From: an uncultured archaeon
GTDB taxonomy: Archaea > Aenigmatarchaeota > Aenigmatarchaeia > CG10238-14 > EX4484-224
DNA: 37,572 nt
Assembly: GCA_964459585.1 (NCBI GenBank)
Contig: CAYWME010000001.1
Location: forward strand, 1-37,572
Direction: 5' to 3'
Part shown: positions 11,502-25,462 of the stretch, piece after piece
Layout of the letters: every line of letters starts with the position of its first letter
Numbering within the stretch: the first letter of the stretch is position 1
The notes under the pieces: model-generated
Told to the model about the DNA's origin: nothing
The model's database searches: none
Seen by the model: only the letters and a program-made list of their open reading frames with translations
Position numbers and translations under genes: made by a program

Positions 11502-11532
11502 TAATTTTAAGGTTCATGGTTTACTGATATAT

Positions 11533-12838: not shown

Positions 12839-13356
12839 TATACCATCCTCGTACCACCAATTAAAACTATGATAAAAATTATAAGACCGACAACTATTGC
12901 TACTGTAGTCATGTCTGGTTTTCCGCCAGCTCCTGGTTGAGATCCAGGCATTGTCCACACAACAGAGAGAAGACCAGATGCCAATGAAAGTGATAGAATT
13001 AGGAAAACGACAGCAAAAAGTGTTGTTCTTCTTTTAAATTGATCCATTAACATTTTTGGAAGATCTGGATAGAAAATACTAGCTATTACTGCACCGAGTA
13101 AAAATATCAAGGCAAATACAAAAACTTGCATGAAAAAAACTGAAAAAAAACTATTAACGCTGATGCCTACTACGAATTTGTATGCTAATATACTAAATCC
13201 TATCGATAAAGAAAGTAAAGAACTTATTATTTTATTTTCAATTAGCTTTGATTTGGTGAAAAATGCATAAAAAATAGCAGAGGATGATAAAAAGATCAAT
13301 AAATCGAAAAAACCGAAGGACATTAGCTGCTCTACTATTAGTTCCATTACATTCAT
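12838..13356 (-). CDS. Polytopic membrane protein, paralog A (unknown function)
   Basis: 172 aa and about 5 hydrophobic helices. It shares the N-terminal FGxF..L.F..SSA.FY....KSK motif with the downstream paralog. Confidence 0.6.
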   Translation of the reverse strand: MNVMELIVEQLMSFGFFDLLIFLSSSAIFYAFFTKSKLIENKIISSLLSLSIGFSILAYKFVVGISVNSFFSVFFMQVFVFALIFLLGAVIASIFYPDLPKMLMDQFKRRTTLFAVVFLILSLSLASGLLSVVWTMPGSQPGAGGKPDMTTVAIVVGLIIFIIVLIGGTRMV

Positions 13357-13389: not shown

Positions 13390-14013
13390 TTATTCCTTAA
13401 GTTTGTAAACAAGCTCAGATAAACTTCTTACCGATTCTATTAATGCCGGCAGTGCTTCTCTAAACACTTTTTCTAAACTTTCTACTTTTCCTGTTAATCT
13501 TCTTATATCCCCTCTGAGGTTTTCCATACTGCTTTCAAAGACGAATTTTTCATCCTCCTTTTTTTCTTTTAACTCTCTTACTAGGTTTTCTATTGTTGAA
13601 ATTTTGTTTTCAACGTCCTTTTGTCTTGAAACAAGTTCTCTTATCTTTCTATTGATCTCTGTTGTTTTTTCGTCAACTAAAGTTTCGACATAATCTTGAC
13701 TATACTCTGGTTCTTCTTCTTTGTAATAGGCCTCGATTGAAGACTCTTCTGGAACTTGCAGATCTGTCGAAACTTCTTTTTTTATGTCTTCTATCGTCGG
13801 TAACGGTTTGTCGGTCTTTTCTGTATTCGCTGACACTTTCGATTTAGTCGATTCTAAAATCGCTTTTTCGATTTCATCCAACGAATAACCTTCTTTTGAA
13901 AGAACTTCCAGTATTTCATGCTCTGATAAACCTTTCTTAGAAAGCTCGTTTACTTTATCAATGGGAATATGACCCTTCCCTTTAGCTTCTGTTTTCTTTC
14001 TAAAAAGCGCCAT
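13390..14013 (-). CDS. Coiled-coil protein with a small helical N-terminal domain (unknown function)
   Basis: 207 aa. The basic N-terminus is MALFRKKTEAKGKG, followed by a helical module (LSKKGLSEHEILEVLSKEGYSLDEIEKAI). Next comes an acidic linker and a long heptad-like E/K-rich C-terminus. Confidence 0.6.
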   Translation of the reverse strand: MALFRKKTEAKGKGHIPIDKVNELSKKGLSEHEILEVLSKEGYSLDEIEKAILESTKSKVSANTEKTDKPLPTIEDIKKEVSTDLQVPEESSIEAYYKEEEPEYSQDYVETLVDEKTTEINRKIRELVSRQKDVENKISTIENLVRELKEKKEDEKFVFESSMENLRGDIRRLTGKVESLEKVFREALPALIESVRSLSELVYKLKE

Positions 14014-14046: not shown

Positions 14047-14445
14047 TTAAACCTTAACTTTTTTCCTTTTCCTGAAGGAACTTATCATCCTCAAAACTTC
14101 CTCTCTTGTTACAAACTTTGATTTCAGTGGATTAAAAATGCTTACATAACTTTCAATTCCAGCTAATTCCTCTTTTGTTACAAAAGTGTTTATCTTTTTT
14201 TTCATTTCGTTTATTTCTTTTTCAAATTCATTCATTCTTTCTTTGAGTTCGTTTATTTTATCTAAAATTCTTCCAAGCTTGATGTTTGTTTCGTCTATTT
14301 TTTCTAAAAATTCTTTACTTAAAGTTATTTCGTCGTTTTCAATTTTTTCAACCTTGTCTTCTAAAATCCTTATTCTTCTTAAATGTTCATTCAGCCTTCT
14401 AACAATTTCCCTTAATATAACATCAACTTTTTCTTTTTCTGCCAT
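14047..14445 (-). CDS. Coiled-coil protein (unknown function), divergent from the secretion ATPase
   Basis: 132 aa, almost entirely E/K/I/L heptad-like sequence. It shares a 51-bp divergent intergenic region with the ATPase gene. Confidence 0.6.
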   Translation of the reverse strand: MAEKEKVDVILREIVRRLNEHLRRIRILEDKVEKIENDEITLSKEFLEKIDETNIKLGRILDKINELKERMNEFEKEINEMKKKINTFVTKEELAGIESYVSIFNPLKSKFVTREEVLRMISSFRKRKKVKV

Positions 14446-14496: not shown

Positions 14497-16701
14497 TTGG
14501 TTGAGTACAAAACAGAAGACAATGTTCTTAAGTTTGATTGTAATAATTGGGTGATTCCCAGTAGTATAGAGGATTCTGGAGCTACGATGGCCGTTGTTGT
14601 AGACACGTTATCAAAGGTTTTCGGTGTCGAAAGAATTGTAATGGTTGAAGAGAGAGAGATAGAATACGGAATAGAAGAAACACAAATGTTGATTGAACTG
14701 GCAAAGCTGATTGGAAAAGTAATGTCGGAAAATATTTTAGATATAAAAAATCTTGGAAAGTTAGAAAACAAAGAAGAATTGTCGAAAAGGATAAGGGAGA
14801 TTAGATTTATAGTTACACAGTTACTAAGAAAAGACCCTATCGCGGCCTATGTGAGAATTAACCAGTTAATTAAAAAAGAGAAAGATGCCGTGTTTGTTAA
14901 AAACGTTTTGATCCCACTTAGGAACATGCTTGAAAATATAAAGTTGATTAGAAAAGCAAAACCCTTTCTAAAGTATTATAAATTCGGTGATAGATCGATA
15001 TACCGAAAGATTTTTTCTCCTATAGTCAGACCCCCGTTCATGTTGACTAGGTTTGTGATGAAAGTACCTACAGAATCGAGATTGATTGATAAGTATGAAA
15101 TTCGTGGAAAAATTAAAGTGGAAATATATCAACTACCGGGGGTTGCCAGATTTTTCTACAGAATTATTCCACCAGAATTTGTAATGAGTGAGGATGAAAA
15201 CAAAATTCTGCAAATGGCTAAAGAATATTTGGCAGAAAGAAGGCCAAAAGAAACAGAAACCACAGACTACGAAAAAACTAGAGAATTTTTTATGTCGTTA
15301 GGAAGAAGCTTGATAAGAGATATATCAAAAAGATTAGGAACTAGGCTCAGCTCTTCCGACATAGATAAATTGACAGAGATACTAATTAGGTACACGATAG
15401 GCTTCGGTGTTCTAGAAATTGTATTAGCTGATGATAAAGTTCAAGATGTGTACATAAATGCACCCGTTGGTTCTTCTCCTCTATTCGTAAACCACACAGA
15501 TTATGGAGAGTGTGAAACAAATATAATACCAACAAGAGAAGAGGCAGAATCGTGGGCGACAAGATTTAGGTTGTATTCGGGAAGACCATTGGATGAAGCT
15601 AATCCTGTTTTGGATACAGAAATAACTGTAGCCGGTGGAAGAGCAAGAGTTACAGCAATCACAAGAACGCTTTCTTTGAAAGGCTTGGCCTTCGCATTTA
15701 GAAGGCATAGAAAGCGGCCATGGACCTTTCCCCTTTTTATAAAGGCAAAGTTTTTCGACCCATTATATGCTGGTGTCATGAGTTTCTTGGTTGATGGTGG
15801 CAGATCTATTTTGATCGCTGGGGGAAGAGGAAGTGGTAAAACAAGTCTATTGAATGCTATGTTGTTAGAGCTTATGAGAAATACAAGAATTATTGTTGTT
15901 GAGGACACACCGGAGCTTTCAATAGACCTGATGAGAAGACTTGGTTATAACATAATCGGACTCAAATCAAGATCTGTAATAACCCAAGTAAAAACCGAGT
16001 TACCACCAGAAGAGGCATTAAGAACAGCCTTAAGATTGGGAGATTCTGTTTTGATAGTAGGCGAAGTAAGAAGTAAAGAAAGTGTGGCTTTGTTCGAGGC
16101 CATGAGAATAGGTGCACTAGCAAATCTTGTTGCTGGAACGATTCATGGAGAGAGTACTTATGGTGTATATGATAGAGTTGTTCATGATCTAGGTGTGGTT
16201 CCAACGAGCTTTAAAGCGTTGGATATAATTACAATAGCGAATGTACTAAGAAGTCCTGATGGTCTAAAAAGGTTTAGAAGAGTTATTGAATTAACGGAAG
16301 TTAGAAAAGAATGGAAAGAAGACCCGATGCTAGAAGGGGGGTTTTATAAGCTAATGGAATACTCAGCAAAGGAGGACAAACTGAAACCTACAGACGTTTT
16401 GCTTGAAGGTGAATCGGAAGTTCTAAATGAGATTGCGAAAAGGGTTAGAGAATGGCACGGTGCGTGGGACAAAGTTTGGGAAAATATATTATTGAGAGCG
16501 AAAATTAAAAAAACGATAGTAGATTTCTCAGAGAAATTGAAAAGAAACGATATTCTTGAAGCTGATTGGGTTGTAGAATGTAATGAAATGTTTCATATAA
16601 TTTCTAACAATGTTTTAGAAGAGGTTGGTAGTGTAGAATCAAAACGTGTATATGAGAGATGTCTAAATTGGTTTAAGAAAAAACTAAAGGAAAAAACATG
16701 A
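14497..16701 (+). CDS. Type II/IV secretion-family ATPase (FlaI/PilB/VirB11-like), oversized (734 aa)
   Basis: Walker A AGGRGSGKTS (nt 15820-15843), Asp box RIIVVEDTPEL, Walker B/Glu SVLIVGEVRSKE and His box GTIHGES. The start is uncertain: tracked TTG at 14497, first ATG at 14587. Confidence 0.85.
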   Translation: MVEYKTEDNVLKFDCNNWVIPSSIEDSGATMAVVVDTLSKVFGVERIVMVEEREIEYGIEETQMLIELAKLIGKVMSENILDIKNLGKLENKEELSKRIREIRFIVTQLLRKDPIAAYVRINQLIKKEKDAVFVKNVLIPLRNMLENIKLIRKAKPFLKYYKFGDRSIYRKIFSPIVRPPFMLTRFVMKVPTESRLIDKYEIRGKIKVEIYQLPGVARFFYRIIPPEFVMSEDENKILQMAKEYLAERRPKETETTDYEKTREFFMSLGRSLIRDISKRLGTRLSSSDIDKLTEILIRYTIGFGVLEIVLADDKVQDVYINAPVGSSPLFVNHTDYGECETNIIPTREEAESWATRFRLYSGRPLDEANPVLDTEITVAGGRARVTAITRTLSLKGLAFAFRRHRKRPWTFPLFIKAKFFDPLYAGVMSFLVDGGRSILIAGGRGSGKTSLLNAMLLELMRNTRIIVVEDTPELSIDLMRRLGYNIIGLKSRSVITQVKTELPPEEALRTALRLGDSVLIVGEVRSKESVALFEAMRIGALANLVAGTIHGESTYGVYDRVVHDLGVVPTSFKALDIITIANVLRSPDGLKRFRRVIELTEVRKEWKEDPMLEGGFYKLMEYSAKEDKLKPTDVLLEGESEVLNEIAKRVREWHGAWDKVWENILLRAKIKKTIVDFSEKLKRNDILEADWVVECNEMFHIISNNVLEEVGSVESKRVYERCLNWFKKKLKEKT

Positions 16702-18596
16702 ATGACGAAAAAGAAAAACAAACACTTTATGAAAAAATTTGCATGTTTTTCGAAAAGATAGGGATTAATCCACCAAAGGATCTGAGAGAAAGATACGAGA
16801 AAGAAATAAATTTTTGTCATCTAAAGACTACTCCGAAGGGTGTTTTTTCAACTGCCATTTTTGTACCGATTATAATTTCGATTTCTATGTCAGTAATAGC
16901 TTTGTTTTTAAACGTCTTCTCCTTTGCCCTTCTAGGAATGATTGTTGTTTTGAATTTTATTGTCTTTTATTTTCTCCTTTTTTACACCAAATTTTTGGTT
17001 AAATTTTTTAGGTCGAAAGCTGCGTCTGAGATGGCTCTGGCTATAGTTTATATGACTACTTCACTAAAAGTGTCTAGAAACTTAGAAAACGCGGTTTTAT
17101 TTGCTGCATCAAACTTAAAGGGTCCGCTAGGAAAGGACTTTAAACAAATTTTATGGGAATTAGAGACAGGAAAATTGAATTCAGTTATACAAGGAATTGA
17201 CAAACTGATAGAAAAATGGAAAGAAGAAAGTGAGGAGTTTGTCGATGCTTTAACAATTTTAAAGAATACAACGGCTGTTCCACCATCAGAAGTTGATAAA
17301 AACCTTAGGAAGGCGGTGTCGATTATGCTTTATGGAACTAAAGAAAGAATGAAAAAATACTCGCTGGCGTTAAAAATGCCTTTGATGATAATAAACATGT
17401 TTGGGATTTTACTTCCCGTGATGGGACTAATATTCTTCCCGATTGTTTCACTTTTTACACCAGAAATTGCTAGGCCAGAACTTCTGGCTTTTTTATATGT
17501 GGTGTTTTTACCGACAGTCAACATAATTTTCATGAGACAGTATTTCTATCATAGACCATATTCTTTTCACCAAATTGAAAGCAAGGTTATTGTTGATCTA
17601 AAAAAACTTCTTTTACCTATATTTTTTATTTTGGTGTCCTGTTTAGCAGTCGTTGTGTTTTCGTCTATGCAACTCTTGAATGAAAAAGGGGCTTTTAGTT
17701 TTAATCAACTAATTTTCTCAGTAAGTATTGTATCAACTATAGGTCTTAGCATTTCTTCGATTTTACTTTTAGTAGGATATATAAATAAAGAAAAGAATGA
17801 AAAGCTTTTGGAAATGGAAAGGGAATTGCCGTCTGTTCTTTTTGCTTTGAGTTTGGAAGCAGAAACAGGAAGACCGTTTGAAATTATCCTCGAAGATTCT
17901 TTGTCAAAAATAAGAGATTATAAGTTTAGTGAAATCGTTATTAGAATCCTAGAAAGAATTAAAAAGTTGGGTTTAAATCTCAAATCAGCTTTATTTAGTG
18001 AAAAATATGGAGTAATGTTCGATTATCCGTCTAAGATTATTCATGCGGTAATGAAAACGGTTGTCGATATATCTGAAAGAGGCATACATTTCCTTTCTTC
18101 TTCGCTAAGAACTATTTCAGAATATCTTAAAGATGCAATAGAAGTTGATGATTTTTCACATGAAACTTTATCGGAATCCACTTCACAAATGCGATTTCAA
18201 GCGTGGCTTTTGGCTCCACTTACTGCAGGAATAGTTGTTGGTTTGATGGCAATTGTATTGCATATATTTACAGTTTTTGGAGGGTCTTTAGAACAAATAA
18301 ATGAGTTTTTGGGTGGCGGAGATAAAAGCTTTGGTACTATTTCTTTTCTATTCAACATAGGGAACTTAATATCTTTTTCACAATTTCAATTTATAGTAGG
18401 GATTTACATGATAGAAATTATGTTGATCTTATCTTACTTTACAGGTGACATAAAGTACGGAGATAACAATGTAAGCAAAATACTCGAGATGGGGGAAACC
18501 CTTTTAATTGGAATTTTCATATATTTTTCGACAATTCTTCTACTATACATTCTTATAAATGGTATGATAACAATTAGTGCGGTTGAAACAATATGA
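16698..18596 (+). CDS. Pilus/archaellum-type membrane platform protein (PilC/TadC/FlaJ-like, two T2SS-F-like repeats)
   Basis: ATGA overlap with the ATPase gene. 632 aa with three clusters of TM helices separating two cytoplasmic helical domains. Each domain has the family-typical pattern (AASEMALAIVYMTTSLKVSRNLENAV...GPLGKDF and ERELPSVLFALSLEAETGRPFEIIL). Confidence 0.7.
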   Translation: MNDEKEKQTLYEKICMFFEKIGINPPKDLRERYEKEINFCHLKTTPKGVFSTAIFVPIIISISMSVIALFLNVFSFALLGMIVVLNFIVFYFLLFYTKFLVKFFRSKAASEMALAIVYMTTSLKVSRNLENAVLFAASNLKGPLGKDFKQILWELETGKLNSVIQGIDKLIEKWKEESEEFVDALTILKNTTAVPPSEVDKNLRKAVSIMLYGTKERMKKYSLALKMPLMIINMFGILLPVMGLIFFPIVSLFTPEIARPELLAFLYVVFLPTVNIIFMRQYFYHRPYSFHQIESKVIVDLKKLLLPIFFILVSCLAVVVFSSMQLLNEKGAFSFNQLIFSVSIVSTIGLSISSILLLVGYINKEKNEKLLEMERELPSVLFALSLEAETGRPFEIILEDSLSKIRDYKFSEIVIRILERIKKLGLNLKSALFSEKYGVMFDYPSKIIHAVMKTVVDISERGIHFLSSSLRTISEYLKDAIEVDDFSHETLSESTSQMRFQAWLLAPLTAGIVVGLMAIVLHIFTVFGGSLEQINEFLGGGDKSFGTISFLFNIGNLISFSQFQFIVGIYMIEIMLILSYFTGDIKYGDNNVSKILEMGETLLIGIFIYFSTILLLYILINGMITISAVETI

Positions 18597-18706
18597 AAGG
18601 TGTTAGAACGTCAGTTTTATTCATAATGGTAGGAATTTTAACAATTTTTTTGATAGTACTCTTTATTTATATCGTCTCCGAAAAAATTTTTAAATATGCT
18701 CCTTGA
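18593..18706 (+). CDS. Micro-ORF (37 aa), single-TM, possible minimal prepilin-like peptide; not in the ORF track
   Basis: Hand translation: MKGVRTSVLFIMVGILTIFLIVLFIYIVSEKIFKYAP*. The ATG overlaps the platform gene stop (ATGA). MKG is followed by a 22-residue hydrophobic stretch. Confidence 0.35.
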   Translation: MKGVRTSVLFIMVGILTIFLIVLFIYIVSEKIFKYAP

Positions 18707-18854
18707 AGGAAAAAAAGGGATTGCTATAAGTTGGATTGTCTTGGCCATTTTGTTTATAATTTCTATCATCGTTTTTTTAATTTTCATAAACAAAATGACT
18801 TTTATCATACCTATTTTTGGAACAAAGGTTGGAGAGGCCATTAGTGGAGGATAA
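18696..18854 (+). CDS. Micro-ORF (52 aa) with a class-III-like leader; not in the ORF track
   Basis: Hand translation: MLLEGKKGIAISWIVLAILFIISIIVFLIFINKMTFIIPIFGTKVGEAISGG*. KKG|IA is followed by a hydrophobic helix. It overlaps the previous micro-ORF by 11 nt in another frame. Confidence 0.4.
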   Translation: MLLEGKKGIAISWIVLAILFIISIIVFLIFINKMTFIIPIFGTKVGEAISGG

Positions 18855-18887
18855 TTTACATTAATTTCAAAAACAAAATTATATTTA

Positions 18888-20123
18888 ATGAGCTGGTCTT
18901 TAACGTTGGTCGCTGGTTTTGTTGTTGGGGTTATAGTGATTTCACTATCAAGTTTATTTCTTTTTGGTACAACGAACCCCATTTTCGACCGCTTGTCGTC
19001 TTTATTTTCCTCCTATGATCAAGACATTAGAAACGCTATACTTTGCGCTATTGAGAGGGCTAAAAGTGGTTGTAATGATCCTTTGATAGATACAATAAGA
19101 TGGAAGAGTTATGATGAAAATGGGAGTTTGGTTGAAGTTTCTTGTATAGAGTTTTGTAACAGAGAACAATTTTTTGATAAAAATGGGAGAGTGTTTGGTT
19201 TTGAATCAATTTACTATCCTGTGGAAATTTCTGTAAGCGGTGAGGACAACATTATAGGAAGGTATAGTTCACCAGAGATAAAATGTTTGACACTAGCTTC
19301 TAAGATAGTTCATAAAATGTATCCAAATAAGTTTTCTTTAGATGTAGGTGATAATTATATAATAATCGATGATTCTGTAATAAAAAAATATCCTACTCCC
19401 TCTGATGACGATTGTGATGGGGCGGAAAGCTATGATTTATTGGATATCAAAAACTCTAAATTGTATATTTATACAGTTACTGATCCGTTTCATGATAAAA
19501 TCGTTTATGTAAACTCTACAAACACTTATCCGATCATTGAGCCCAATGGTGAGACATATGTTAATCTTACTCTTACTGAGACTTATTATGGGTTCGATAC
19601 GAGTTTAGATATAAGTGTAAATTTTTATGGGAAGGCGATAAGATTAAGAGTTAAAGATAATAACTATGAGAAAGACCTAATAGTGGTTGCTGATAAGATA
19701 GATGGAGAAAATAAAAACGTTGTTCTCTCTATATATGATTTTACCGATAATTCACTTATATGTCAGAAGACCATAAATAAAGGCTCTCGTGACAAATGTG
19801 AACTCGATGATATTAGAGAGCTTGACTTTTTTGTAGAAGACATGTTTAGCTTTTCTTATTGCGTAATTCATGAATGTTATGGTAGTAGGTGTGGTTCTGT
19901 GTATAAATATGTTAGTCAAGAAAATGATGATATTTGTGATGTTGTTTTGTCAACCATTAATTCAACAAAAATAAAAATTAGATTCCAAACCACTGATTGT
20001 GAAAGCCAGGGGGACGGGTATGTTTGTTTAAGTAATTGTGGTCCATGTAACGAAGTTACTAGATATTCGTGTAGTAACGGAAAGCTATGTTGTTATTGCC
20101 CTTACTTAACAGAAATATCATAA
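18888..20123 (+). CDS. Large cysteine-rich surface protein, paralog 1 (N-terminal hydrophobic anchor/leader; 20 Cys; Cys-knot-like C-terminus)
   Basis: 411 aa. N-terminus MSWSLTLVAGFVVGVIVISLSSLFLF. It shares a 69-aa identical cassette and lower-level similarity throughout with the next gene. The C-terminal 44 aa carry 8 Cys (TDCESQGDGYVCLSNCGPCNEVTRYSCSNGKLCCYCPY). Confidence 0.7.
   Translation: MSWSLTLVAGFVVGVIVISLSSLFLFGTTNPIFDRLSSLFSSYDQDIRNAILCAIERAKSGCNDPLIDTIRWKSYDENGSLVEVSCIEFCNREQFFDKNGRVFGFESIYYPVEISVSGEDNIIGRYSSPEIKCLTLASKIVHKMYPNKFSLDVGDNYIIIDDSVIKKYPTPSDDDCDGAESYDLLDIKNSKLYIYTVTDPFHDKIVYVNSTNTYPIIEPNGETYVNLTLTETYYGFDTSLDISVNFYGKAIRLRVKDNNYEKDLIVVADKIDGENKNVVLSIYDFTDNSLICQKTINKGSRDKCELDDIRELDFFVEDMFSFSYCVIHECYGSRCGSVYKYVSQENDDICDVVLSTINSTKIKIRFQTTDCESQGDGYVCLSNCGPCNEVTRYSCSNGKLCCYCPYLTEIS
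19029..19235 (+). repeat. 207-bp perfect direct repeat, copy 1 (in frame inside CDS 18888..20123)
   Basis: Base-by-base comparison with 20341..20547 shows identity over all 207 nt. The flanking bases differ on both sides (t/g upstream, a/g downstream). Confidence 0.95.
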
Positions 20124-20146
20124 GTTGTGAGTGTTGCACTCAAAAC
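20124..20146 (+). terminator. Stem-loop directly after the stop of paralog 1 (GTTGTGAGTG-ttg-CACTCAAAAC)
   Basis: 10-bp stem with one mismatch and a 3-nt loop, starting 1 nt after the TAA. There is no T-tract, so a role in termination or mRNA stabilisation is speculative. Confidence 0.25.
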
Positions 20147-20193
20147 GGGCCTTCCATAAACACTTTAACTTAAATCAGCAAAATATTTAATTA

Positions 20194-21261
20194 ATGAGAG
20201 GTTTTGGATCATTCGTTGTTGGTGCTATAATCGTAGTGGTAACGGTAGTAGTGATAGCTTTTCTTTTATTCAAATATGGTGGTAGTTTATTAAGACAGCG
20301 ATCTGATATATTTATTTCTTATTCCAATGTTGCTAATCCGAGAAACGCTATACTTTGCGCTATTGAGAGGGCTAAAAGTGGTTGTAATGATCCTTTGATA
20401 GATACAATAAGATGGAAGAGTTATGATGAAAATGGGAGTTTGGTTGAAGTTTCTTGTATAGAGTTTTGTAACAGAGAACAATTTTTTGATAAAAATGGGA
20501 GAGTGTTTGGTTTTGAATCAATTTACTATCCTGTGGAAATTTCTGTAGATAGTAGTAGTTCGATAGAAAAATATAAAGATCCAAAAATAGAATGCTTATC
20601 GTTAATCGCAAAATTTAAAACACCATCGTGCCCGCTTGGTTGTGCTGGTACTTATGTTTTCGTTGACGATTATGCGATATCCAAATATCCTGATGTTTCT
20701 AAAGAATGTAATGGGATTGAATCGTACAGTTCACTTGCTTTGAAAAAAACTACATTGTATATCTATGCTGTCAAAAAAGATGATAACAATCCCCTAACAC
20801 TAAACAACTTTATATATATTTTTATATATAGTACCCCAACATATCCCGTACTCCATCCTAACGATAAAGTCAGTATAACATTGAGCAAACCATACGATGA
20901 TGGTACTTACGTAGTGAAAGCGGTTAGAATAAAGACGATAACCTCAGATTCTCAAAGAGATTTAATAATCACTACAAGAAATATAAATCGCGAAGAGGAA
21001 AAAATTGAGATTTTAATACTAGACTTTGACAATTTAAACTCAATTTGTCAAGAAATAATAAGTAGAGGTTCGACTTATAAGTGCTATATTGATGACAACA
21101 ATTATCTTGAAATTGTACCAACGGAATTTTCTCAATCCAGTCGTCCAAAAACCAATAACACAAAAGTTACTATAAAATTCAAAACACCAACTAGTGGTGG
21201 AGAGGCTGGTAGAATGGTAAGTTCTTGCGCGCCTCGCCCACACTGTCTTTACCCAGAATAA
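20194..21261 (+). CDS. Large cysteine-rich surface protein, paralog 2 (class-III-like leader MRG|FGSFVVGAIIVVV; 12 Cys)
   Basis: 355 aa. It contains the identical 69-aa cassette, then diverged but alignable segments (IEKYKDPKIECLSL / IGRYSSPEIKCLTL; LYIYAV / LYIYTV; SICQEIISRGSTYKCYIDD / LICQKTINKGSRDKCELDD). Confidence 0.7.
   Translation: MRGFGSFVVGAIIVVVTVVVIAFLLFKYGGSLLRQRSDIFISYSNVANPRNAILCAIERAKSGCNDPLIDTIRWKSYDENGSLVEVSCIEFCNREQFFDKNGRVFGFESIYYPVEISVDSSSSIEKYKDPKIECLSLIAKFKTPSCPLGCAGTYVFVDDYAISKYPDVSKECNGIESYSSLALKKTTLYIYAVKKDDNNPLTLNNFIYIFIYSTPTYPVLHPNDKVSITLSKPYDDGTYVVKAVRIKTITSDSQRDLIITTRNINREEEKIEILILDFDNLNSICQEIISRGSTYKCYIDDNNYLEIVPTEFSQSSRPKTNNTKVTIKFKTPTSGGEAGRMVSSCAPRPHCLYPE
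20341..20547 (+). repeat. 207-bp perfect direct repeat, copy 2 (in frame inside CDS 20194..21261)
   Basis: Identical to 19029..19235. Both copies begin on a codon boundary of their own gene (offsets 141 and 147 nt from the starts). Confidence 0.95.
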
Positions 21262-21297
21262 AATAAAATTATTTATCTCGAAATTAAGAGTTTTATT

Positions 21298-21561
21298 ATG
21301 GTTTCTATAAACACAGTGTTTATAATATTAGTTATTTTTTTCACATTTTTCTTCACTCTTGTATTAACATGGAACTATTATGCAAAAAACGAAAAAGTAA
21401 GAGGAGAAATGGCTTGTGAAGCGAAACTATTAAATTATTGCCAAAGATGGTTAACGGAAGGAGAAGACCCTGGCGATTGGTATTCTATATCTCCTGTAGA
21501 CTGCGAAAAATATGGAATTACTAGACCGACTAAAGAATATTGTAATGAGGTATTAAAATGA
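21298..21561 (+). CDS. Small N-terminally anchored Cys-containing protein (87 aa)
   Basis: MVSINTVFIILVIFFTFFFTLVLTW hydrophobic N-terminus, then a soluble domain with 4 Cys. The stop overlaps the next start (ATGA). Confidence 0.6.
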   Translation: MVSINTVFIILVIFFTFFFTLVLTWNYYAKNEKVRGEMACEAKLLNYCQRWLTEGEDPGDWYSISPVDCEKYGITRPTKEYCNEVLK

Positions 21562-21977
21562 ATGGGATAACATCTATAGATGTAGCCGGATTTGTTATAA
21601 TAACAATTTTAACACTTGTCTTTTTTTTCAATTTTTTACCAAGAGCCGTAGAGATGCTTGTAAAAACTGTTAGTCTAACCTCAACTTGGAGAGTTTCGGA
21701 AGAGATAAGTAGTTTAATATCAACATCAGCTTCAGCGCCCTATGAAATCGAAATAAACTACAAAATCCCAGACGAGAGAGTCAAATACAAAATATCTACT
21801 TCAGATAGATTCGTACATGTAAGTATTTTAAGGGGGGGTGTTTTAGGAGAAACGTCTCCAGCAGATTCAAAAATTCTCGTAGATGTGAATGAAGAAGCGT
21901 TTGAAAGTGCTTCCGAGTTCATTATAAAAAAGTTTTTAACAAACGGTGAAACCCAATATGTCATCAAAGCTAAATAA
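21558..21977 (+). CDS. Pilin-like/N-terminally anchored protein (139 aa)
   Basis: MNG|ITSIDVAGFVIITILTLVFFF leader-like N-terminus. It is operonic, with 4-nt overlap upstream and about 20-nt overlap downstream. Confidence 0.55.
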   Translation: MNGITSIDVAGFVIITILTLVFFFNFLPRAVEMLVKTVSLTSTWRVSEEISSLISTSASAPYEIEINYKIPDERVKYKISTSDRFVHVSILRGGVLGETSPADSKILVDVNEEAFESASEFIIKKFLTNGETQYVIKAK

Positions 21978-22851
21978 AGGAATTACGATAACGACATCGG
22001 CCGTTTTCGAAGCAATTGTTTTACTCATTTTAATAATACTGATATTTTGGTTTTTTGCTAATACAGCGTACGAGGCACATTTGAAGTTAAAAGAAAATAG
22101 AGTAGAAAAAATGTCGATAGAAGTAGCAAATGCTATGCTCAGTTCAAAGGAACTTACATACGAAGAAAACGGAAAGGTTTTAAGAGGTGTTCTAGATAAA
22201 GAAAAACTAGATGCAAAATTCTACAAAATTAAAGAATTTCCACTAGTAACGAATGTTAAGGAATTTGCGGGTTGTGTACAATATACTTATAATAACAATT
22301 GTTCTGAAGCGAACATAATAGACATTCTTGAATGTATAGCAAACTTTCTTTCAGACATAACTGGGTGTGTTTCTGATTTCATTCTCGATAATTTTGGCCC
22401 AACAAGTGATACGAATATATTTAAAAACTATGAAGTTGCTGTCCAATCATTAAATATGTATACAACGCCTATAGACGTTTCTGTAGGTTTTCCAAATACA
22501 TACACATACGTTGTTGTTTTAGATTTAGAAAATTGCGATGAAAACGGTCATTGTGAATCTTGGCAGGGAGTTATTAATTCACCGACATCATTAGGAGAAA
22601 ATTATATATTCAGGTTTGGTGAGTGTCTTTTGAGTAACATAAATTTGGATTTAAACACGATTGTTTCGGCAGGTCTTTTTGCCGGACTATGGACACCATT
22701 TGACATAGACGAATGTGTTAATAATGTTTTTGGAGGAAACGCAATATACAATAATATAATGTCAAGAAAAGGTCTTCCTGTGTTAATAAAATATGGAAAT
22801 GGTGAAACCCATATAGGAAGAATTTATGTGGGAATGGTACAATGGTCGTAA
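21958..22851 (+). CDS. Prepilin-like protein (297 aa, 8 Cys)
   Basis: MSSKLNKG|ITITTSAVFEAIVLLILIILIFWFF has a basic residue plus Gly followed by a hydrophobic helix (class III signal pattern). The tracked GTG at 21946 is an alternative start. Confidence 0.65.
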   Translation: MSSKLNKGITITTSAVFEAIVLLILIILIFWFFANTAYEAHLKLKENRVEKMSIEVANAMLSSKELTYEENGKVLRGVLDKEKLDAKFYKIKEFPLVTNVKEFAGCVQYTYNNNCSEANIIDILECIANFLSDITGCVSDFILDNFGPTSDTNIFKNYEVAVQSLNMYTTPIDVSVGFPNTYTYVVVLDLENCDENGHCESWQGVINSPTSLGENYIFRFGECLLSNINLDLNTIVSAGLFAGLWTPFDIDECVNNVFGGNAIYNNIMSRKGLPVLIKYGNGETHIGRIYVGMVQWS

Positions 22852-23276
22852 AAAAAGGCTTTATGTTAATAACAATTCCCATCATGATCGCTCTATTTGT
22901 ATTAGTAATTGGTGGTGCTTTTGGTTTGAGCGTTCTTTTAAAAAAACAACTAATAATTAACCTTATAGTTGAATACGAGAACAACGAAGGCGATCTATCA
23001 ATCCTATCTCTTTTAAGACGCAAATTCAGCGAGACGTTGGATGGTTATGACGTCATAGTGTTGTCCAGCAATATACAGAGCGATTCTTTTCTCGATTTTA
23101 TCGATGATGCTATAAATAAGACCATTTCACCTAAATGCTATGAATTATATTTTTTGGAAAAACTTATTAAAAAAACGTGTGATTGCGGCAGAAATTCAAA
23201 TAAAGTTTCCTTTGATTTAATTGTCCCATATAATGATGAAAACCTAATAAAAACGCTGACTTTGGTGTATAAATGA
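22842..23276 (+). CDS. Prepilin-like protein (144 aa)
   Basis: MVVKKG|FMLITIPIMIALFVLVIGGAF is a textbook class III signal pattern. It overlaps both neighbours. Confidence 0.7.
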   Translation: MVVKKGFMLITIPIMIALFVLVIGGAFGLSVLLKKQLIINLIVEYENNEGDLSILSLLRRKFSETLDGYDVIVLSSNIQSDSFLDFIDDAINKTISPKCYELYFLEKLIKKTCDCGRNSNKVSFDLIVPYNDENLIKTLTLVYK

Positions 23277-24142
23277 AAGGACAAGGCCCGATAGCGATTG
23301 CATTGATGATTTTGATGATTGGTCTTGCTAGTGCTGGTTATTTTTTAACTTCGTCCATTATAACCACGTATAACGTCAGAACAGGTTTAAAAAGTAGGAC
23401 AATTATGAAAGAAATCGACAAGTTTGAGGTTTTTAAAATAGGTATAGAAAAATCTCTTAAATATTCACTTTGTCAGGGTGTTTATGAAACCTTTAAAAAA
23501 AATGGATTTAGTTCTCTTGACAACATACCGACTATAGATAATATACCAGTTTTGAGAAATGGGAGTAATGTATATTTTACTTATAACTATTTTGACGATG
23601 TGAAAAACAGTGTAGCTAATATTTTTTCTGAATATACTAACCAACTTAAGAATGTCAATGGAGTTGTGGTACCGAGTGGTGAAATACGAATTGTAGACGA
23701 AGATGGCTTAGTTGAAGTGTTTTTTCATTCCGATGAAAAAACCACGTATTCTGGATTTTTCTATACTATAAAAGATTTGACTAATTTTAGTGCAAAAGTA
23801 AGAACGCATTTTTTAGATATGTTTGACCTGGCCATCGACATGTTTATCCAAAACGATAAAATAAAGGAAAAAATCACAGAAGCAATAAATTCGTGTGGAT
23901 ATTGCTCCGACGAAGAACTTGGAAATATGATAAGTGACAAAATTAAAACTCTAGAGGGTAAATACAATGGAGTTGAACTCGTGTTAAATGTTGAAAATAT
24001 CAAAATAGCCCAAAACAAAGTCACGGCAAAGGTTCTCGTGACAATAAAAGACTCAGATAAATGTTTCTTTTTTGACGACTCTGAAGTACGGTATGATAAA
24101 TTACCGTTTGTTTTCTATATAATTAGCGAAAAAAACATTTAG
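23273..24142 (+). CDS. Prepilin-like protein (289 aa)
   Basis: MKG|QGPIAIALMILMIGLASAGYF carries the KGQ motif typical of euryarchaeal-type prepilins. ATGA overlap with the upstream gene. Confidence 0.7.
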   Translation: MKGQGPIAIALMILMIGLASAGYFLTSSIITTYNVRTGLKSRTIMKEIDKFEVFKIGIEKSLKYSLCQGVYETFKKNGFSSLDNIPTIDNIPVLRNGSNVYFTYNYFDDVKNSVANIFSEYTNQLKNVNGVVVPSGEIRIVDEDGLVEVFFHSDEKTTYSGFFYTIKDLTNFSAKVRTHFLDMFDLAIDMFIQNDKIKEKITEAINSCGYCSDEELGNMISDKIKTLEGKYNGVELVLNVENIKIAQNKVTAKVLVTIKDSDKCFFFDDSEVRYDKLPFVFYIISEKNI

Positions 24143-24164
24143 AGTTTTGAGCAACAGCCAAACA

Positions 24165-24199
24165 ACAAAAATATTAATACAAAGTTTAAAAAAATATAT
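24165..24199 (+). promoter_or_regulatory. Possible BRE/TATA region for the short pilin gene; the transcript may be leaderless
   Basis: AAAAATATTAATAC is centred about 26 nt upstream of the ATG at 24200. There is no SD-like purine motif in between. This is the only sizeable intergenic gap (57 nt) inside the pilin gene string. Confidence 0.3.
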
Positions 24200-24520
24200 A
24201 TGGCAAAAGGGCTGAGTGCACCAACCATAATAAGTTTAATAATTGCGGTCGCTATAGGTGGGTTATTACTCTACATATTCTGGACAAGAGGTGCGACGCC
24301 ATTTATGGGTGTAACCAGTGAGCAAGATTGCAGAACCACTATTTTTAAAGCATGTAACAAATTTACTGGTATGAATTTCAATGTTTTTGATGATACAAAA
24401 ATAAAATCATGTATTGAAAAGTATTTTCCTGAGGAAAATAGCGATTATGAAGAATGTATTGATGGGAACCAAGACAAATGTTCAAGCATGTGTATAGCAT
24501 TTGAATCTGGAACTGTTTAG
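24200..24520 (+). CDS. Short prepilin-like protein (106 aa, 6 Cys), candidate major pilin
   Basis: MAKG|LSAPTIISLIIAVAIGGLLLYIF is a class III signal pattern. It has a small globular domain with 6 Cys and its own upstream AT-rich promoter-like gap. Confidence 0.7.
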   Translation: MAKGLSAPTIISLIIAVAIGGLLLYIFWTRGATPFMGVTSEQDCRTTIFKACNKFTGMNFNVFDDTKIKSCIEKYFPEENSDYEECIDGNQDKCSSMCIAFESGTV

Positions 24521-24521
24521 C

Positions 24522-25430
24522 TTACTCTGAAATCAATTGCTCTGGAGTTATAATGTTAAAACCTATTTCTTTTGTTATTTCATAAGTATATTCTGCAGAA
24601 ACATATATCGGTAAACTATCAGAAGTATCGATGGACGGTATATTAAAACTACACATTATCTTTTTTGTGTTGTCTACGAAACTTAATTCTACTAGTTCAT
24701 CGTTCTTACAAACCGTGTCACCAATTCTAATTGTCACCTTAACGTTTCTTATTTTCCCGCCGTATTTTACTATTCCATCTCCGCTGTTTATTATGACAAA
24801 CTCTAGATAGCCAGTATCTTGACCGTTTAGACTTCTATAGAAGTATGGTCCATGATCAATTACTTGAACCACTAATGGTGCCTTAGAAACATATGAATAA
24901 GAAATGCTTGGCGTCTCCAATATCTCTTTCAACAAATCTATCTTTGCTTTCAAATAATCGTAATTATAAACATCTACGGACCCTGTTAATTCTGTGGAAT
25001 AATCATAATCCACCGTGACTTCGAGCACTGCATTGCCTGTTACACTTCCTGTTGATATCAAAATGGGTTTTTGATCATAGTAGATTTTTCCTGGCAATTT
25101 TTTTTCTAAATCAACAAAAGTAAGCTGCAATTGATTTAAATCACCTTCAAATGTAAAATCACCAAGCTTTTTTTTCACAGTAGCTAGCACGTTTCTAGCA
25201 TCTTCGCTTCCTTGGTTTTCAACTTTAATCGTAAACGTGTTTTGATCGTTTATAAGAATTTGACTAGGTAAGTCTTCTAAACTCAGCAAAACTTCGCCAA
25301 ACTGCGTAGAAATTACAGAACTTTTATTCCCAGTCTCACCTGTCTCGCCACCAGTTGGTGTTTGAACACAACCGGCGACGAAAACAACAAATAATAAAAT
25401 GAATAACTGTAAGGCTTCTTTAATTTTCAT
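24522..25430 (-). CDS. Secreted lipobox protein with a beta-sandwich/adhesion-like domain (CARDB-like impression)
   Basis: Start trimmed to MKIKEALQLFILLFVVFVAGC, a signal peptide plus a lipobox-like VAG|C. A T/G/E linker follows. The segment FTIKVENQGSEDARNVLATV resembles CARDB/DUF11-type domains (from memory, unverified). Confidence 0.6.
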   Translation of the reverse strand: MKIKEALQLFILLFVVFVAGCVQTPTGGETGETGNKSSVISTQFGEVLLSLEDLPSQILINDQNTFTIKVENQGSEDARNVLATVKKKLGDFTFEGDLNQLQLTFVDLEKKLPGKIYYDQKPILISTGSVTGNAVLEVTVDYDYSTELTGSVDVYNYDYLKAKIDLLKEILETPSISYSYVSKAPLVVQVIDHGPYFYRSLNGQDTGYLEFVIINSGDGIVKYGGKIRNVKVTIRIGDTVCKNDELVELSFVDNTKKIMCSFNIPSIDTSDSLPIYVSAEYTYEITKEIGFNIITPEQLISE

Positions 25431-25462
25431 ATTTTTAATTTTCTTATGAAACGATTTAAATG

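What the first reader, a model, noticed from the sequence alone, without database searches (positions are those of the whole stretch)
14497..24520. Non-canonical archaeal type IV pilus-like operon: oversized ATPase, platform protein, two micro-ORFs and eight leader-bearing, mostly Cys-rich substrates
Seen in the sequence: twelve co-directional ORFs, many with start/stop overlaps such as ATGA. (1) A secretion-superfamily ATPase has Walker A, Asp box, Walker B and His box. (2) A 632-aa polytopic protein carries two T2SS-F-like cytoplasmic repeats. (3) At least six downstream proteins begin with the class III signal pattern, a basic residue plus Gly followed by about 20 hydrophobic residues (KKG|IA, MRG|FG, NKG|IT, KKG|FM, MKG|QG, AKG|LS). 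From established knowledge, ATPase plus platform plus class III-signal substrates is the minimal archaeal type IV filament machinery. Several things depart from described Aap, Ups, Epd or archaellum loci. There are many substrates and four are very large (289-411 aa). Nearly all soluble domains are rich in cysteine. No KaiC-like FlaH/ArlH or ArlF/G/C/D/E genes and no prepilin peptidase lie in the window. The locus is bracketed by extra membrane and coiled-coil genes. In a reduced-genome archaeon this architecture would fit a filament with a large multi-subunit tip used for cell-cell or host attachment (inference).
Basis: partly seen in the sequence, partly recalled or inferred. Interest (0 to 1): 0.8.

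Follow-up and report, generated by a model that had tools for sequence, protein, structure and literature searches.

The report
DPANN type IV pilus-like gene cluster
This is a real type IV pilus-like assembly operon of a small symbiotic (DPANN, probably Aenigmatarchaeota) archaeon, but it is one copy of a locus conserved across hundreds of DPANN genomes and already noted in the literature, so it is a typical member with unknown function, not a one-off oddity.

Summary
Twelve co-directional, partly overlapping ORFs encode a secretion-superfamily ATPase, a TadC/FlaJ-like platform protein and ten proteins that each start with a hydrophobic helix. Six or seven of the ten carry a (K/R)-G class III-type cleavage motif, and most are Cys-rich.

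It is a type IV filament (TFF) machine, but it is not peculiar to this window. The ~740-aa ATPase is conserved full-length at 46-69% identity in at least 588 species-level genomes of Aenigmat-, Woese-, Nano- and Nanohaloarchaeota. It keeps the same neighbours: two cytoplasmic coiled-coil proteins and paralogous ~180-aa 5-TM proteins upstream, and the platform downstream. Hamm et al. 2024 (Nat Commun) described conserved type IV pilus plus coiled-coil-protein loci in these same phyla.

What I add:
- The downstream array is a hypervariable set of class III-signal proteins, disulfide-rich with even Cys counts.
- It includes conserved "mini-pilins" and a ~100-aa six-Cys family.
- The ATPase has a ~200-aa N-terminal extension that folds confidently and matches no solved structure.

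Not shown: a prepilin peptidase, a pilin fold, or a filament.

Most likely function, by inference: a host-contact pilus or pseudopilus that displays variable adhesins.

The parts
12284..12838 (-). 5-TM membrane protein, 184 aa (ORF finder extends it to 12958; the public record starts at M41)
   Evidence: 155 homologues of about 180-190 aa, all hypothetical. Paralogue of the next gene (E 7e-6). Detected upstream of the ATPase in 31 of 64 loci with enough flank. The 29-sequence alignment A4 has no invariant residue, so it is not an aspartic peptidase. No Pfam or NCBIfam hit.
12838..13356 (-). Paralogous 5-TM membrane protein, 172 aa
   Evidence: Shares the N-terminal motif F..L...G.F..LLPF.L...I.Y..L.K.KIFG with the previous gene. 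Found in 15 loci.
13390..14013 (-). Cytoplasmic coiled-coil protein, 207 aa: conserved N-terminal three-helix domain, variable Pro/Gln-rich linker, C-terminal coiled coil ending LEKAFK..LPAL.E.VR.L
   Evidence: Homologue in 47 of 83 loci. Alignment A5 has P16, G27 and L37 invariant. No TM helix or signal peptide. Only weak Pfam hits: RecX_HTH1 in 12/29 members, DUF7310 in 11/29, FlaC_arch in 9/29.
14047..14445 (-). Cytoplasmic coiled-coil protein, 132 aa, with conserved C-terminal NP..S.FVT..EVER motif; transcribed divergently from the ATPase gene
   Evidence: Homologue in 52 of 83 loci, including Nanohaloarchaeota L066 and L076. Alignment A7 has P105 invariant.
14497..16701 (+). Secretion-superfamily ATPase, 734 aa (TadA/CpaF/GspE2/FlaI-like core, residues about 208-643) with DPANN-specific N-terminal (~200 aa) and C-terminal (~90 aa) extensions
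   Evidence: AF2 model of residues 1-214 has pLDDT 90.3. Foldseek finds no PDB match, best E 0.25 and TM below 0.2.
16698..18596 (+). Polytopic platform protein, 632 aa, TadC/FlaJ-like (T2SSF)
   Evidence: T2SSF E 2.6e-4 with 2 stretches, below the gathering score. 13 of 26 orthologues hit T2SSF, best 1.1e-10. Lies within 1.5 kb downstream of the ATPase in 57 of 70 loci.
18593..18706 (+). Mini-protein type A, 37 aa (MKG|VRTS followed by a TM helix)
   Evidence: Positional counterparts of 35-55 aa starting MKG(D/T)V.. occur in many loci. The first ORF after the platform is 90 aa or shorter in 37 of 46 loci.
18696..18854 (+). Mini-protein type B, 52 aa (KKG|IAIS followed by a TM helix); Flp-like mini-pilin candidate
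   Evidence: Strict class III pattern. Counterparts of 58-89 aa with M(R)KGVSGKVLT... and usually 2 C-terminal Cys occur in Aenigmat- and Nanohaloarchaeota. The window copy lacks Cys.
18888..20123 (+). Large Cys-rich (20 Cys) signal-anchored protein, 411 aa; no basic-Gly motif
   Evidence: A large Cys-rich protein follows the mini-proteins in most loci: 448, 826, 570, 666, 808 and 499 aa. No Pfam or NCBIfam hit.
20194..21261 (+). Paralogue of the previous gene, 355 aa, 12 Cys, MRG|FG
   Evidence: 41% identity overall. Contains a 207-nt block that is 100% identical to 19029-19235.
21298..21561 (+). Small signal-anchored protein, 87 aa, 4 Cys
   Evidence: tblastn hits in 5 loci. N-terminal TM helix.
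21558..21977 (+). Signal-anchored protein, 139 aa (MNG|ITS), no Cys
21946..22851 (+). Class III-signal protein (NKG|ITIT), 301 aa from GTG or 297 aa from ATG 21958, 8 Cys
   Evidence: tblastn hits in 6 loci. No homologue found in 5.8 billion proteins by the word-indexed search.
22842..23276 (+). Class III-signal protein (KKG|FMLI), 144 aa
23273..24142 (+). Class III-like protein (MKG|QGPI), 289 aa, 4 Cys
   Evidence: Homologue only in L001.
24200..24520 (+). Conserved small class III-signal protein (AKG|LSAP), 106 aa, six conserved Cys; candidate major or core pilin
   Evidence: 31 representative homologues of about 100-130 aa. Alignment A6: MKG|L.APTII... with C44, C52, C71 and C98 invariant. 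A family HMM hits 31 ORFs in 17 loci, often in 2-4 copies. The AF2 model (pLDDT 80.7) has a TM helix plus a small four-helix domain, with no PDB match.
24522..27310 (-). Two convergent surface or membrane protein genes (321 aa with a lipobox-like VAGC and weak CARDB/DUF11 hits; 615 aa multi-TM with a Cys-rich ectodomain). Probably neighbours, not core parts.
   Evidence: Only the 615-aa protein has a counterpart, and only in the closest locus L001. Weak CARDB/DUF11 hits.

Best explanation
The region is the Aenigmatarchaeota version of a type IV filament (TFF) system conserved across DPANN archaea.

Shown:
- A hexameric-type secretion ATPase (TadA/CpaF/GspE2-like core) and a TadC/FlaJ-like platform form a conserved pair.
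- Upstream and divergent lie two cytoplasmic coiled-coil proteins and two paralogous 5-TM proteins, conserved across phyla.
- Downstream lie ten proteins with an N-terminal hydrophobic helix, most preceded by a very short basic leader ending in Gly (typically MKG|).
- These ten are hypervariable in sequence and rich in paired cysteines.

Inferred mechanism:
- The pre-proteins insert into the membrane, and a class III (A24) signal peptidase encoded elsewhere trims them after the Gly.
- The ATPase and platform extract them and polymerise them through their hydrophobic helices into a pilus or short pseudopilus.
- The shaft would be built from small conserved subunits: the 37/52-aa mini-proteins and the 106-aa six-Cys family.
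- The large disulfide-stabilised proteins (289-411 aa here) would act as minor or tip subunits, that is, adhesins or occasionally enzymes.
- The coiled-coil and 5-TM proteins, together with the extra N- and C-terminal domains of the ATPase, would form a lineage-specific cytoplasmic and membrane scaffold or regulator.
- A conserved motor paired with fast-evolving exposed subunits fits a role in contact with host cells in these host-dependent archaea.
For: - ATPase family and catalytic motifs.
- Platform T2SSF membership through its orthologues.
- Enrichment of the class III-like motif and N-terminal TM helix downstream of the platform in 60 loci (53% and 80%, against 7% and 25% elsewhere).
- Cys enrichment and even Cys counts (p = 4e-20), implying extracellular disulfides.
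- Tight operon structure with overlapping stops and starts.
- Conserved core across Aenigmat-, Woese-, Nano- and Nanohaloarchaeota.
- Conserved mini-proteins and the multi-copy six-Cys small-protein family.
- Substrates otherwise undetectable by sequence.
- A GH5-domain protein with an MKG| leader sits in the array of L002.
- Literature: conserved DPANN type IV pilus plus coiled-coil loci, with several of the encoded proteins (the coiled-coil proteins included) detected by proteomics in Ca. Nanohaloarchaeum antarcticus (PMC11291902). DPANN pilus islands with unrecognisable pilins (PMC6393860).
Against: - No prepilin peptidase is in the window or in about 1.5 Mb of related flanks. The 5-TM family has no invariant Asp.
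- No pilin or archaellin HMM matches any substrate.
- The only substrate that could be modelled (106 aa) gives a short TM helix, a flexible loop and an all-helical domain. That is not a known pilin fold, and nothing in the PDB matches it.
- Three of the ten proteins lack the basic-Gly motif.
- Woesearchaeota loci keep the ATPase and platform without adjacent pilin-like genes.
- No filament has been tied to this locus experimentally. Host attachment is an inference from lifestyle.
Confidence: 0.7

Rival explanations
1. A bindosome- or type II secretion-like display system. The machine does not build a long pilus. It builds a short pseudopilus or membrane-proximal assembly that exposes or releases functional class III-signal proteins (adhesins, hydrolases) at the cell surface.
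For: - The modelled small subunit has a short helix, a flexible linker and a compact domain, not a pilin fold.
- A GH5 cellulase-domain protein with an MKG| leader sits in the array of L002. One Peptidase_M23 hit occurs among the large ORFs downstream of the platform.
- The ATPase has a weak BasE match, 1.3e-16.
- A 2026 preprint argues that archaeal TFF machines are often functionalised with class III-signal binding proteins (10.64898/2026.04.22.720090).
Against: - The ATPase is closer to TadA, GspE2 and FlaI than to BasE.
- No substrate-binding-protein domains were found in 60 large array proteins.
- Small, multi-copy, conserved subunits are what a filament shaft needs.
Confidence: 0.18
2. 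A DNA- or nutrient-uptake pilus (competence-like) that serves a genome-reduced symbiont, not an adhesion organelle.
For: Pilus-mediated DNA import has been proposed for DPANN archaea (PMC9563170). The system is conserved and sits among housekeeping genes.
Against: No ComEC-like channel, DNA-binding or nuclease gene lies in the window or the conserved core. Hypervariable Cys-rich exposed proteins fit recognition of a partner surface better.
Confidence: 0.05
3. Chance neighbourhood. The downstream genes are ordinary signal-anchored (type II) membrane or surface proteins that are not processed by a class III peptidase and are not handled by the ATPase and platform.
For: No peptidase was found. 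No pilin HMM or fold was detected. Three array proteins lack the motif.
Against: The motif and N-terminal TM helix are enriched 7-fold and 3-fold specifically downstream of the platform in 60 loci from several phyla. Genes are translationally coupled by overlaps starting at the ATPase. The extremely short MKG leaders are typical of class III signals, not of Sec signals.
Confidence: 0.05
4. An archaellum (motility) locus.
For: NCBIfam FlaI match of 3.6e-36 over residues 200-676. Weak FlaC_arch hits in 9 of 29 members of the coiled-coil family.
Against: The score is far below the FlaI equivalog cut-off (125 against 550 bits). No FlaH/KaiC, ArlF/G or archaellin domain is present anywhere in the window. 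The best solved relative is GspE2, not FlaI.
Confidence: 0.02

Closest known systems
Conserved type IV pilus plus coiled-coil-protein (CCP) loci of cluster 2 DPANN archaea (Hamm et al. 2024, Nat Commun, PMC11291902, Fig. 4)
   Same: - CpaF/TadA-like ATPase, TadC-like platform and adjacent coiled-coil proteins.
- The same phyla: Aenigmat-, Woese-, Nano- and Nanohaloarchaeota.
- The Nanohaloarchaeota loci L066 and L076 have the same gene order as the window.
   Different: The paper centres on the coiled-coil proteins, which it likens to reovirus sigma-1. According to its Fig. 4 legend it annotates filament proteins (FlaF, PilA) in only one of its two loci. I could not map the window to 'locus 1' or 'locus 2' because the figure and Dataset 13 are not held.

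The following were worked out here and do not appear in the parts of the paper I could read (main text, figure legends and the supplement text that is held):
- the hypervariable Cys-rich class III array;
- the mini-proteins;
- the 5-TM paralogues;
- the extra ATPase domains.
Bacterial Tad/Flp pilus (CpaF/TadA, TadB/TadC, Flp, TadE/F, TadV)
   Same: The ATPase core is most similar to TadA/CpaF. Very small pilin-like proteins that are mostly one hydrophobic helix resemble Flp. Additional pseudopilin-like subunits are present.
   Different: There is a single fused platform protein, and no secretin or outer-membrane parts. The Flp G|XXXXEY motif was not seen. The ATPase carries about 290 extra residues. 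The coiled-coil and 5-TM partners have no Tad counterpart.
Euryarchaeal adhesion pili with many minor pilins (Methanococcus maripaludis Epd pili; Haloferax volcanii PilA1-6 with PilB/PilC; clades 1, 2 and 4 of Makarova et al. 2016, PMC4858521)
   Same: An ATPase and a TadC-like platform with several class III-signal pilins of very different sizes. The peptidase is not encoded in the locus (in those systems it typically lies elsewhere; own knowledge). No FlaH.
   Different: No match to the pilin arCOG or Pfam models. The substrates are Cys-rich. The ATPase has distinct N- and C-terminal extensions. Conserved divergent coiled-coil and 5-TM genes are present.
Archaellum (ArlI/FlaI, ArlJ/FlaJ, ArlH, ArlF/G, ArlB)
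   Same: Homologous ATPase and platform pair. Subunits carry class III signals.
   Different: ArlH, ArlF/G, ArlC/D/E/X and archaellins are absent.
Sulfolobus bindosome assembly system (BasEF plus class III-signal sugar-binding proteins)
   Same: A TFF-type ATPase and membrane protein act on class III-signal proteins that carry functional domains. One related locus has a GH5 enzyme with such a leader.
   Different: No solute-binding domains. The BasE match is weaker than the TadA and FlaI matches.

Membership tests
Type IV filament (TFF) superfamily, archaeal type IV pilus-like system | PilB/TadA/FlaI-type secretion ATPase with Walker A, Asp box, Walker B and His box | tested here: met
   Pfam T2SSE 2.5e-18 (66.3 bits, above the gathering score of 24.9). 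PDB profile hits to GspE2 (6e-33), CpaF (7e-24) and FlaI (1e-18). Invariant GKT, ED, GE.R and H residues.
Type IV filament (TFF) superfamily, archaeal type IV pilus-like system | Polytopic platform protein with T2SSF (GspF/PilC/TadC/FlaJ) domains next to the ATPase | tested here: met
   The window protein alone is sub-threshold (21.4 against 25.2 bits). 13 of 26 orthologues hit T2SSF, best 1.1e-10. Adjacent to the ATPase in 57 of 70 loci. Profile against PDB GspF gives only E 0.24.
Type IV filament (TFF) superfamily, archaeal type IV pilus-like system | Substrates with class III signal peptides (short basic leader, Gly/Ala at -1, then about 20 hydrophobic residues) | tested here: met
   Four strict and three near matches among ten ORFs. 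53% against 7% motif frequency in 60 loci. This is a motif-level test only; cleavage is not shown.
Type IV filament (TFF) superfamily, archaeal type IV pilus-like system | Pilin fold (long N-terminal helix packed on a globular head) or a pilin/archaellin family match | tested here: inconclusive
   No Pfam or NCBIfam pilin model matches. The AF2 model of the 106-aa protein is a TM helix, a loop and a four-helix head with no PDB match. The other substrates could not be modelled because no homologues were found for an alignment.
Type IV filament (TFF) superfamily, archaeal type IV pilus-like system | Class III signal (prepilin) peptidase, family A24, in the genome | not testable with these tools
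   None in the 37.6-kb window. None among the ORFs of 83 related loci by a motif scan. The rest of the genome is not available. Other DPANN are reported to encode TadV (PMC9563170).
Archaellum | ArlH/FlaH (KaiC-like), ArlF/G, ArlC/D/E or ArlX, and archaellins next to ArlI/ArlJ | tested here: not met
   No such domains in any ORF of 90 aa or more in the window. The FlaI equivalog score is 125 bits against a cut-off of 550.
DPANN cluster 2 conserved type IV pilus/CCP locus (Hamm et al. 2024) | CpaF-like ATPase and TadC with adjacent coiled-coil protein genes, conserved in Nanohalo-, Woese-, Nano- and Aenigmatarchaeota | tested here: met
   Homologues of both coiled-coil proteins, the ATPase and the platform occur in the same order in loci of these phyla. 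At least one CCP lies within 3 kb upstream in 50 of 64 loci. A direct match to the Ca. Nha. antarcticus genes was not possible because their sequences are not held.
Bacterial Tad/Flp pilus | Flp pilin with the G|XXXXEY processing motif, separate TadB and TadC, secretin RcpA | tested here: not met
   There is one fused platform gene and no secretin. The mini-proteins lack an EY motif after the Gly.

The most novel reading that the evidence does not exclude
The locus is not merely an adhesion pilus. It would be the conserved DPANN-specific host-contact apparatus. In this reading, a TFF motor with unique N- and C-terminal domains is coupled to a cytoplasmic coiled-coil scaffold and 5-TM proteins. 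It drives a short pseudopilus made of helix-only mini-subunits, which presents fast-evolving, disulfide-locked adhesins or enzymes to the host envelope. That would make it the machine that sets host specificity and possibly initiates the intercellular connection.
Probability: 0.2. Interest if true: 0.75.

Novelty: new member of a known kind. Interest (0 to 1): 0.38.

Why it matters
DPANN archaea depend on physical contact with host cells, and how they make that contact is an open question. This locus is one of the few surface-machine gene sets conserved across several DPANN phyla.

Its anatomy gives concrete, testable candidates for the contact apparatus:
- which parts are constant: the ATPase with extra domains, the platform, two coiled-coil proteins and the 5-TM paralogues;
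- which parts are hypervariable: the Cys-rich class III-signal proteins.

It also suggests that the 'missing pilins' of DPANN genomes sit directly downstream of the platform but escape all current pilin models.

For this particular window, though, the finding is a typical family member and not a new kind of system.

Tried and rejected
1. Prepilin peptidase. I looked in the window by Pfam and ran a motif/TM scan over 1,893 ORFs of 83 related loci. None was found. The conserved 5-TM family was considered as a divergent peptidase and rejected because its alignment has no invariant Asp.
2. Homologues of the 297-aa substrate, wanted to build an alignment for structure prediction. The word-indexed search of 5.8 billion proteins returned only the protein itself.
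3. Fold assignment of the ATPase N-terminal extension. The model is confident (pLDDT 90) but Foldseek against the PDB found nothing.
4. Fold assignment of the 106-aa protein. No PDB match by structure or by sequence profile. The 297- and 289-aa proteins also gave nothing against PDB sequences.
5. Pfam and NCBIfam on the coiled-coil proteins, the 5-TM proteins, the micro-ORFs and the downstream convergent genes. Only coiled-coil noise came back. The DUF350 (PF03994) label on a few database homologues was not reproduced by my own scan.
6. Exact look-up of the window's contig to name the organism. It is not on record. Taxon assignment therefore rests on the best ATPase hits.
7. Mapping the window to 'locus 1' or 'locus 2' of Hamm et al. 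through their supplements. The relevant tables are not held or are truncated.
8. Domain census of 60 large array proteins. They are almost all dark matter. The tRNA synthetase, GT4, TnpB and M50 hits are unrelated genes beyond the arrays.

Full report
**1. What is in the window**

The window is an archaeal chromosome fragment of about 32% GC. It carries Nop5, fibrillarin, ribosomal proteins L10/L1/L11, Spt5, FtsZ, a TYW2 methyltransferase, a diphthine-synthase-like methylase, Alba, a Hel308-type helicase and Kae1.

From 14497 to 24520 there are twelve co-directional ORFs on the + strand. Four junctions overlap by 4 nt, three more by 10-32 nt, and the remaining gaps are 33-70 nt.

The first ORF (734 aa, TTG start) is a secretion-superfamily ATPase:
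- Pfam T2SSE scores 2.5e-18.
- NCBIfam TadA-family scores 1.5e-39 and FlaI 3.6e-36, both far below the equivalog cut-offs.
- The start is supported by alignment to homologues, whose consensus begins MxVEYEV.
- The Walker A, Asp-box, Walker B and His-box residues are invariant in 27 sequences.

The second ORF (632 aa, about nine hydrophobic segments) scores just below threshold for T2SSF on its own (21.4 against 25.2 bits). However, 13 of 26 orthologues match T2SSF, best 1.1e-10. I accept it as a TadC/FlaJ-type platform.

**2. The ten downstream proteins**

Every one begins with a hydrophobic helix.
- Four fit a strict FlaFind-like pattern: KG|IA, KG|IT, KG|FM, KG|LS.
- Three are near fits: MRG|FG, MKG|QG, MKG|VR.
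- Three lack a basic-Gly motif.

No Pfam or NCBIfam pilin, archaellin or other model matches any of them.

To test whether this is more than chance I called ORFs in 83 related loci and compared ORFs co-directional and downstream of the platform with all other ORFs. Of 271 downstream ORFs, 80% have an N-terminal TM helix and 53% have a [KR][GAS] motif just before it. For 1014 other ORFs the figures are 25% and 7%. The usual form is M(K)KG|.

Downstream ORFs contain 2.86% Cys against 1.08% elsewhere. Among Cys-containing downstream proteins, 83% have an even Cys count (153 of 185, binomial p = 4e-20), against 45% elsewhere. That is the signature of extracellular disulfide-bonded domains.

**3. 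The locus is not peculiar to this window**

The ATPase search returned more than 4,800 hits. The best 120 cover essentially the whole query (at least 95%) at 58-69% identity, and those that carry a name are called Aenigmatarchaeota. Almost all are about 720-770 aa. The exceptions are three forms of about 1,260 aa whose extra length is an intein.

A scan of one genome per species found at least 588 relatives. The best 80 include full-length matches at 46-61% identity in:
- Woesearchaeota;
- MAGs labelled Nanoarchaeota;
- Nanohaloarchaeota, including the complete genome CP046106.1.

tblastn of all window proteins against the 83 loci shows a conserved core:

| Gene | Loci with a hit (of 83) |
|---|---|
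| ATPase | 83 |
| Platform | 63 |
| 132-aa coiled-coil protein (upstream, divergent) | 52 |
| 207-aa coiled-coil protein (upstream, divergent) | 47 |
| 5-TM protein (184 aa) | 33 |
| 5-TM protein (172 aa) | 15 |

Among loci with enough flank, 50 of 64 have a detectable coiled-coil gene within 3 kb upstream. In 57 of 70 the platform lies within 1.5 kb downstream. Nanohaloarchaeota loci have the same order: two 5-TM genes, two coiled-coil genes, ATPase, platform, a 60-72-aa protein, a large protein, then more MKG| proteins. Even the flanking housekeeping genes are syntenic in close relatives.

By contrast, the ten substrates are almost never detectable by sequence. They hit 0-6 loci each, mostly the closest locus L001. 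The 297-aa protein has no detectable homologue among 5.8 billion proteins. So the picture is a constant motor with hypervariable exposed proteins.

**4. Literature**

- Hamm et al. [quoted passage not shown] The loci contain a CpaF ATPase, TadC and coiled-coil proteins, and several of the encoded proteins, the coiled-coil proteins included, were detected by proteomics (PMC11291902).
- Makarova et al. 2019 noted DPANN pilus islands whose pilins are unrecognisable dark matter (PMC6393860).
- A 2026 preprint states that variable N-terminal domains of archaeal TFF ATPases track the subsystems (10.64898/2026.04.22.720090).

The kind of locus is therefore known. The window holds a new member of it. 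I could not decide which of the two published loci it corresponds to.

**5. Details worked out here**

(a) The ATPase is oversized because of conserved extensions. A profile of 27 sequences aligns to solved relatives only over positions about 208-643. The relatives are A. fulgidus GspE2 2OAP (6e-33), CpaF (7e-24) and FlaI (1e-18). AlphaFold2 on residues 1-214 with a 32-sequence alignment gives a confident model (pLDDT 90.3). It has two small beta hairpins with a helix, followed by a five-helix bundle. Foldseek finds nothing similar in the PDB, best E 0.25 and TM below 0.2.

(b) The two micro-ORFs are real. The first ORF after the platform is 90 aa or shorter in 37 of 46 loci. Two types recur:
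- about 35-55 aa, 'MKG(D/T)V..' followed by a TM helix;
- about 58-89 aa, 'M(R)KGVSGKVLT...', usually with two C-terminal Cys.

They would mature into peptides that are little more than one hydrophobic helix, reminiscent of Flp pilins.

(c) The last gene (106 aa) belongs to a conserved family. An exhaustive HMMER search found 31 representatives of about 100-130 aa. They share MKG|L.APTII..., G31 and six conserved Cys. A family HMM finds 31 members in 17 loci, often in 2-4 copies. Its AF2 model (pLDDT 80.7) is a 23-residue TM helix, a low-confidence loop and a small four-helix head. It has no PDB match. That is not a known pilin fold.

(d) The coiled-coil proteins have no TM helix or signal peptide, so I read them as cytoplasmic.
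- The 207-aa family has a conserved N-terminal three-helix domain, a variable Pro/Gln-rich linker and a coiled coil with a conserved LEKAFK..LPAL end.
- The 132-aa family ends in NP..S.FVT..EVER.

(e) The 5-TM proteins are paralogues of an uncharacterised family. Their alignment has no invariant residue, so they are not the missing peptidase.

(f) In one related locus a 721-aa GH5 cellulase-domain protein carries an MKG| leader inside the array. Otherwise 60 large array proteins are almost entirely without known domains.

**6. Mechanism**

The gene set and the motif statistics are shown. The following steps are inferred:
- A class III peptidase encoded elsewhere cuts after the Gly.
- The ATPase and platform assemble the processed proteins, through their hydrophobic helices, into a pilus or pseudopilus.
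- Small conserved subunits form the shaft. Large disulfide-rich variable proteins are minor or tip subunits (adhesins, sometimes enzymes).
- The coiled-coil and 5-TM proteins, and the extra ATPase domains, form a lineage-specific scaffold or regulator.
- The function is contact with host cells.

The main rival is a bindosome- or T2SS-like display system rather than a long pilus. The non-pilin model of the 106-aa protein and the GH5 fusion favour this rival somewhat. An archaellum is excluded, because no FlaH, ArlF/G or archaellins are present.

**7. What is missing**

- No prepilin peptidase was found in the window or in related flanks. Other DPANN are reported to have TadV (PMC9563170).
- No pilin fold was demonstrated.
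- No filament is tied to this locus.

**8. Verdict**

The interpretation as a type IV pilus-like machine is supported. The claim of an exceptional, non-canonical architecture is not: this is a typical member of a DPANN-wide locus that is already reported but functionally uncharacterised.

Interest is moderate (0.38). It rests on the unexplained conserved accessories and on the hypervariable Cys-rich substrate array, not on the novelty of the system itself.

Noticed in passing
window 19029-19235 and 20341-20547: A 207-nt block is 100% identical between the two tandem paralogues (411 aa and 355 aa), which are otherwise only 41% identical as proteins. This points to recent gene conversion between array genes, or to an assembly artefact.
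   Followed up: partly
homologues P0044, P0054, P0115 (about 1,260 aa): Some DPANN orthologues of the ATPase carry an intein with a homing-endonuclease domain (PF14528, PF14890) inserted in the ATPase.
   Followed up: no
L002 19924-22086 (Aenigmatarchaeota MAG GCA_016187385.1): A 721-aa protein with an MKG|QTAF class III-like leader, 24 Cys and a GH5 cellulase/mannosidase domain sits inside the pilin-like array. It is a possible enzyme displayed or secreted by the pilus machine.
   Followed up: partly
L002 8813-9477: A PIN/MazE toxin-antitoxin pair is inserted between the two conserved coiled-coil genes upstream of the ATPase. A Peptidase_S74-domain protein lies among the 5-TM genes.
   Followed up: no
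window 24522-25487 (-) and 25463-27310 (-): Two convergent genes lie right after the array. One is a 321-aa protein with a lipobox-like 'VAGC' and weak CARDB/DUF11 matches. The other is a 615-aa protein with several TM helices and a Cys-rich ectodomain. Only the second has a counterpart, at the same position in the closest locus L001.
   Followed up: partly
window 35540-36079 (-): A CBS-pair protein has a C-terminal zinc-ribbon that weakly matches the Cas12f1-like TNB domain (6.5e-5, below the gathering score). It is probably just a zinc ribbon.
   Followed up: no
L055, L072, L077 (Woesearchaeota): These loci keep the ~740-aa ATPase and the platform but have no recognisable pilin-like array directly downstream. 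The substrates may be encoded elsewhere in that phylum.
   Followed up: no
window 11329-12294 and L066 469-1179, L001-L003: The pilus locus lies next to the diphthine-synthase-like methylase gene in Aenigmatarchaeota (Pfam TP_methylase). In Nanohaloarchaeota L066 a similar-looking ORF sits at the same position, judged by its N-terminal sequence only; no Pfam scan was run on it. If confirmed, this would be an unusually old piece of synteny for a surface-structure locus.
   Followed up: no
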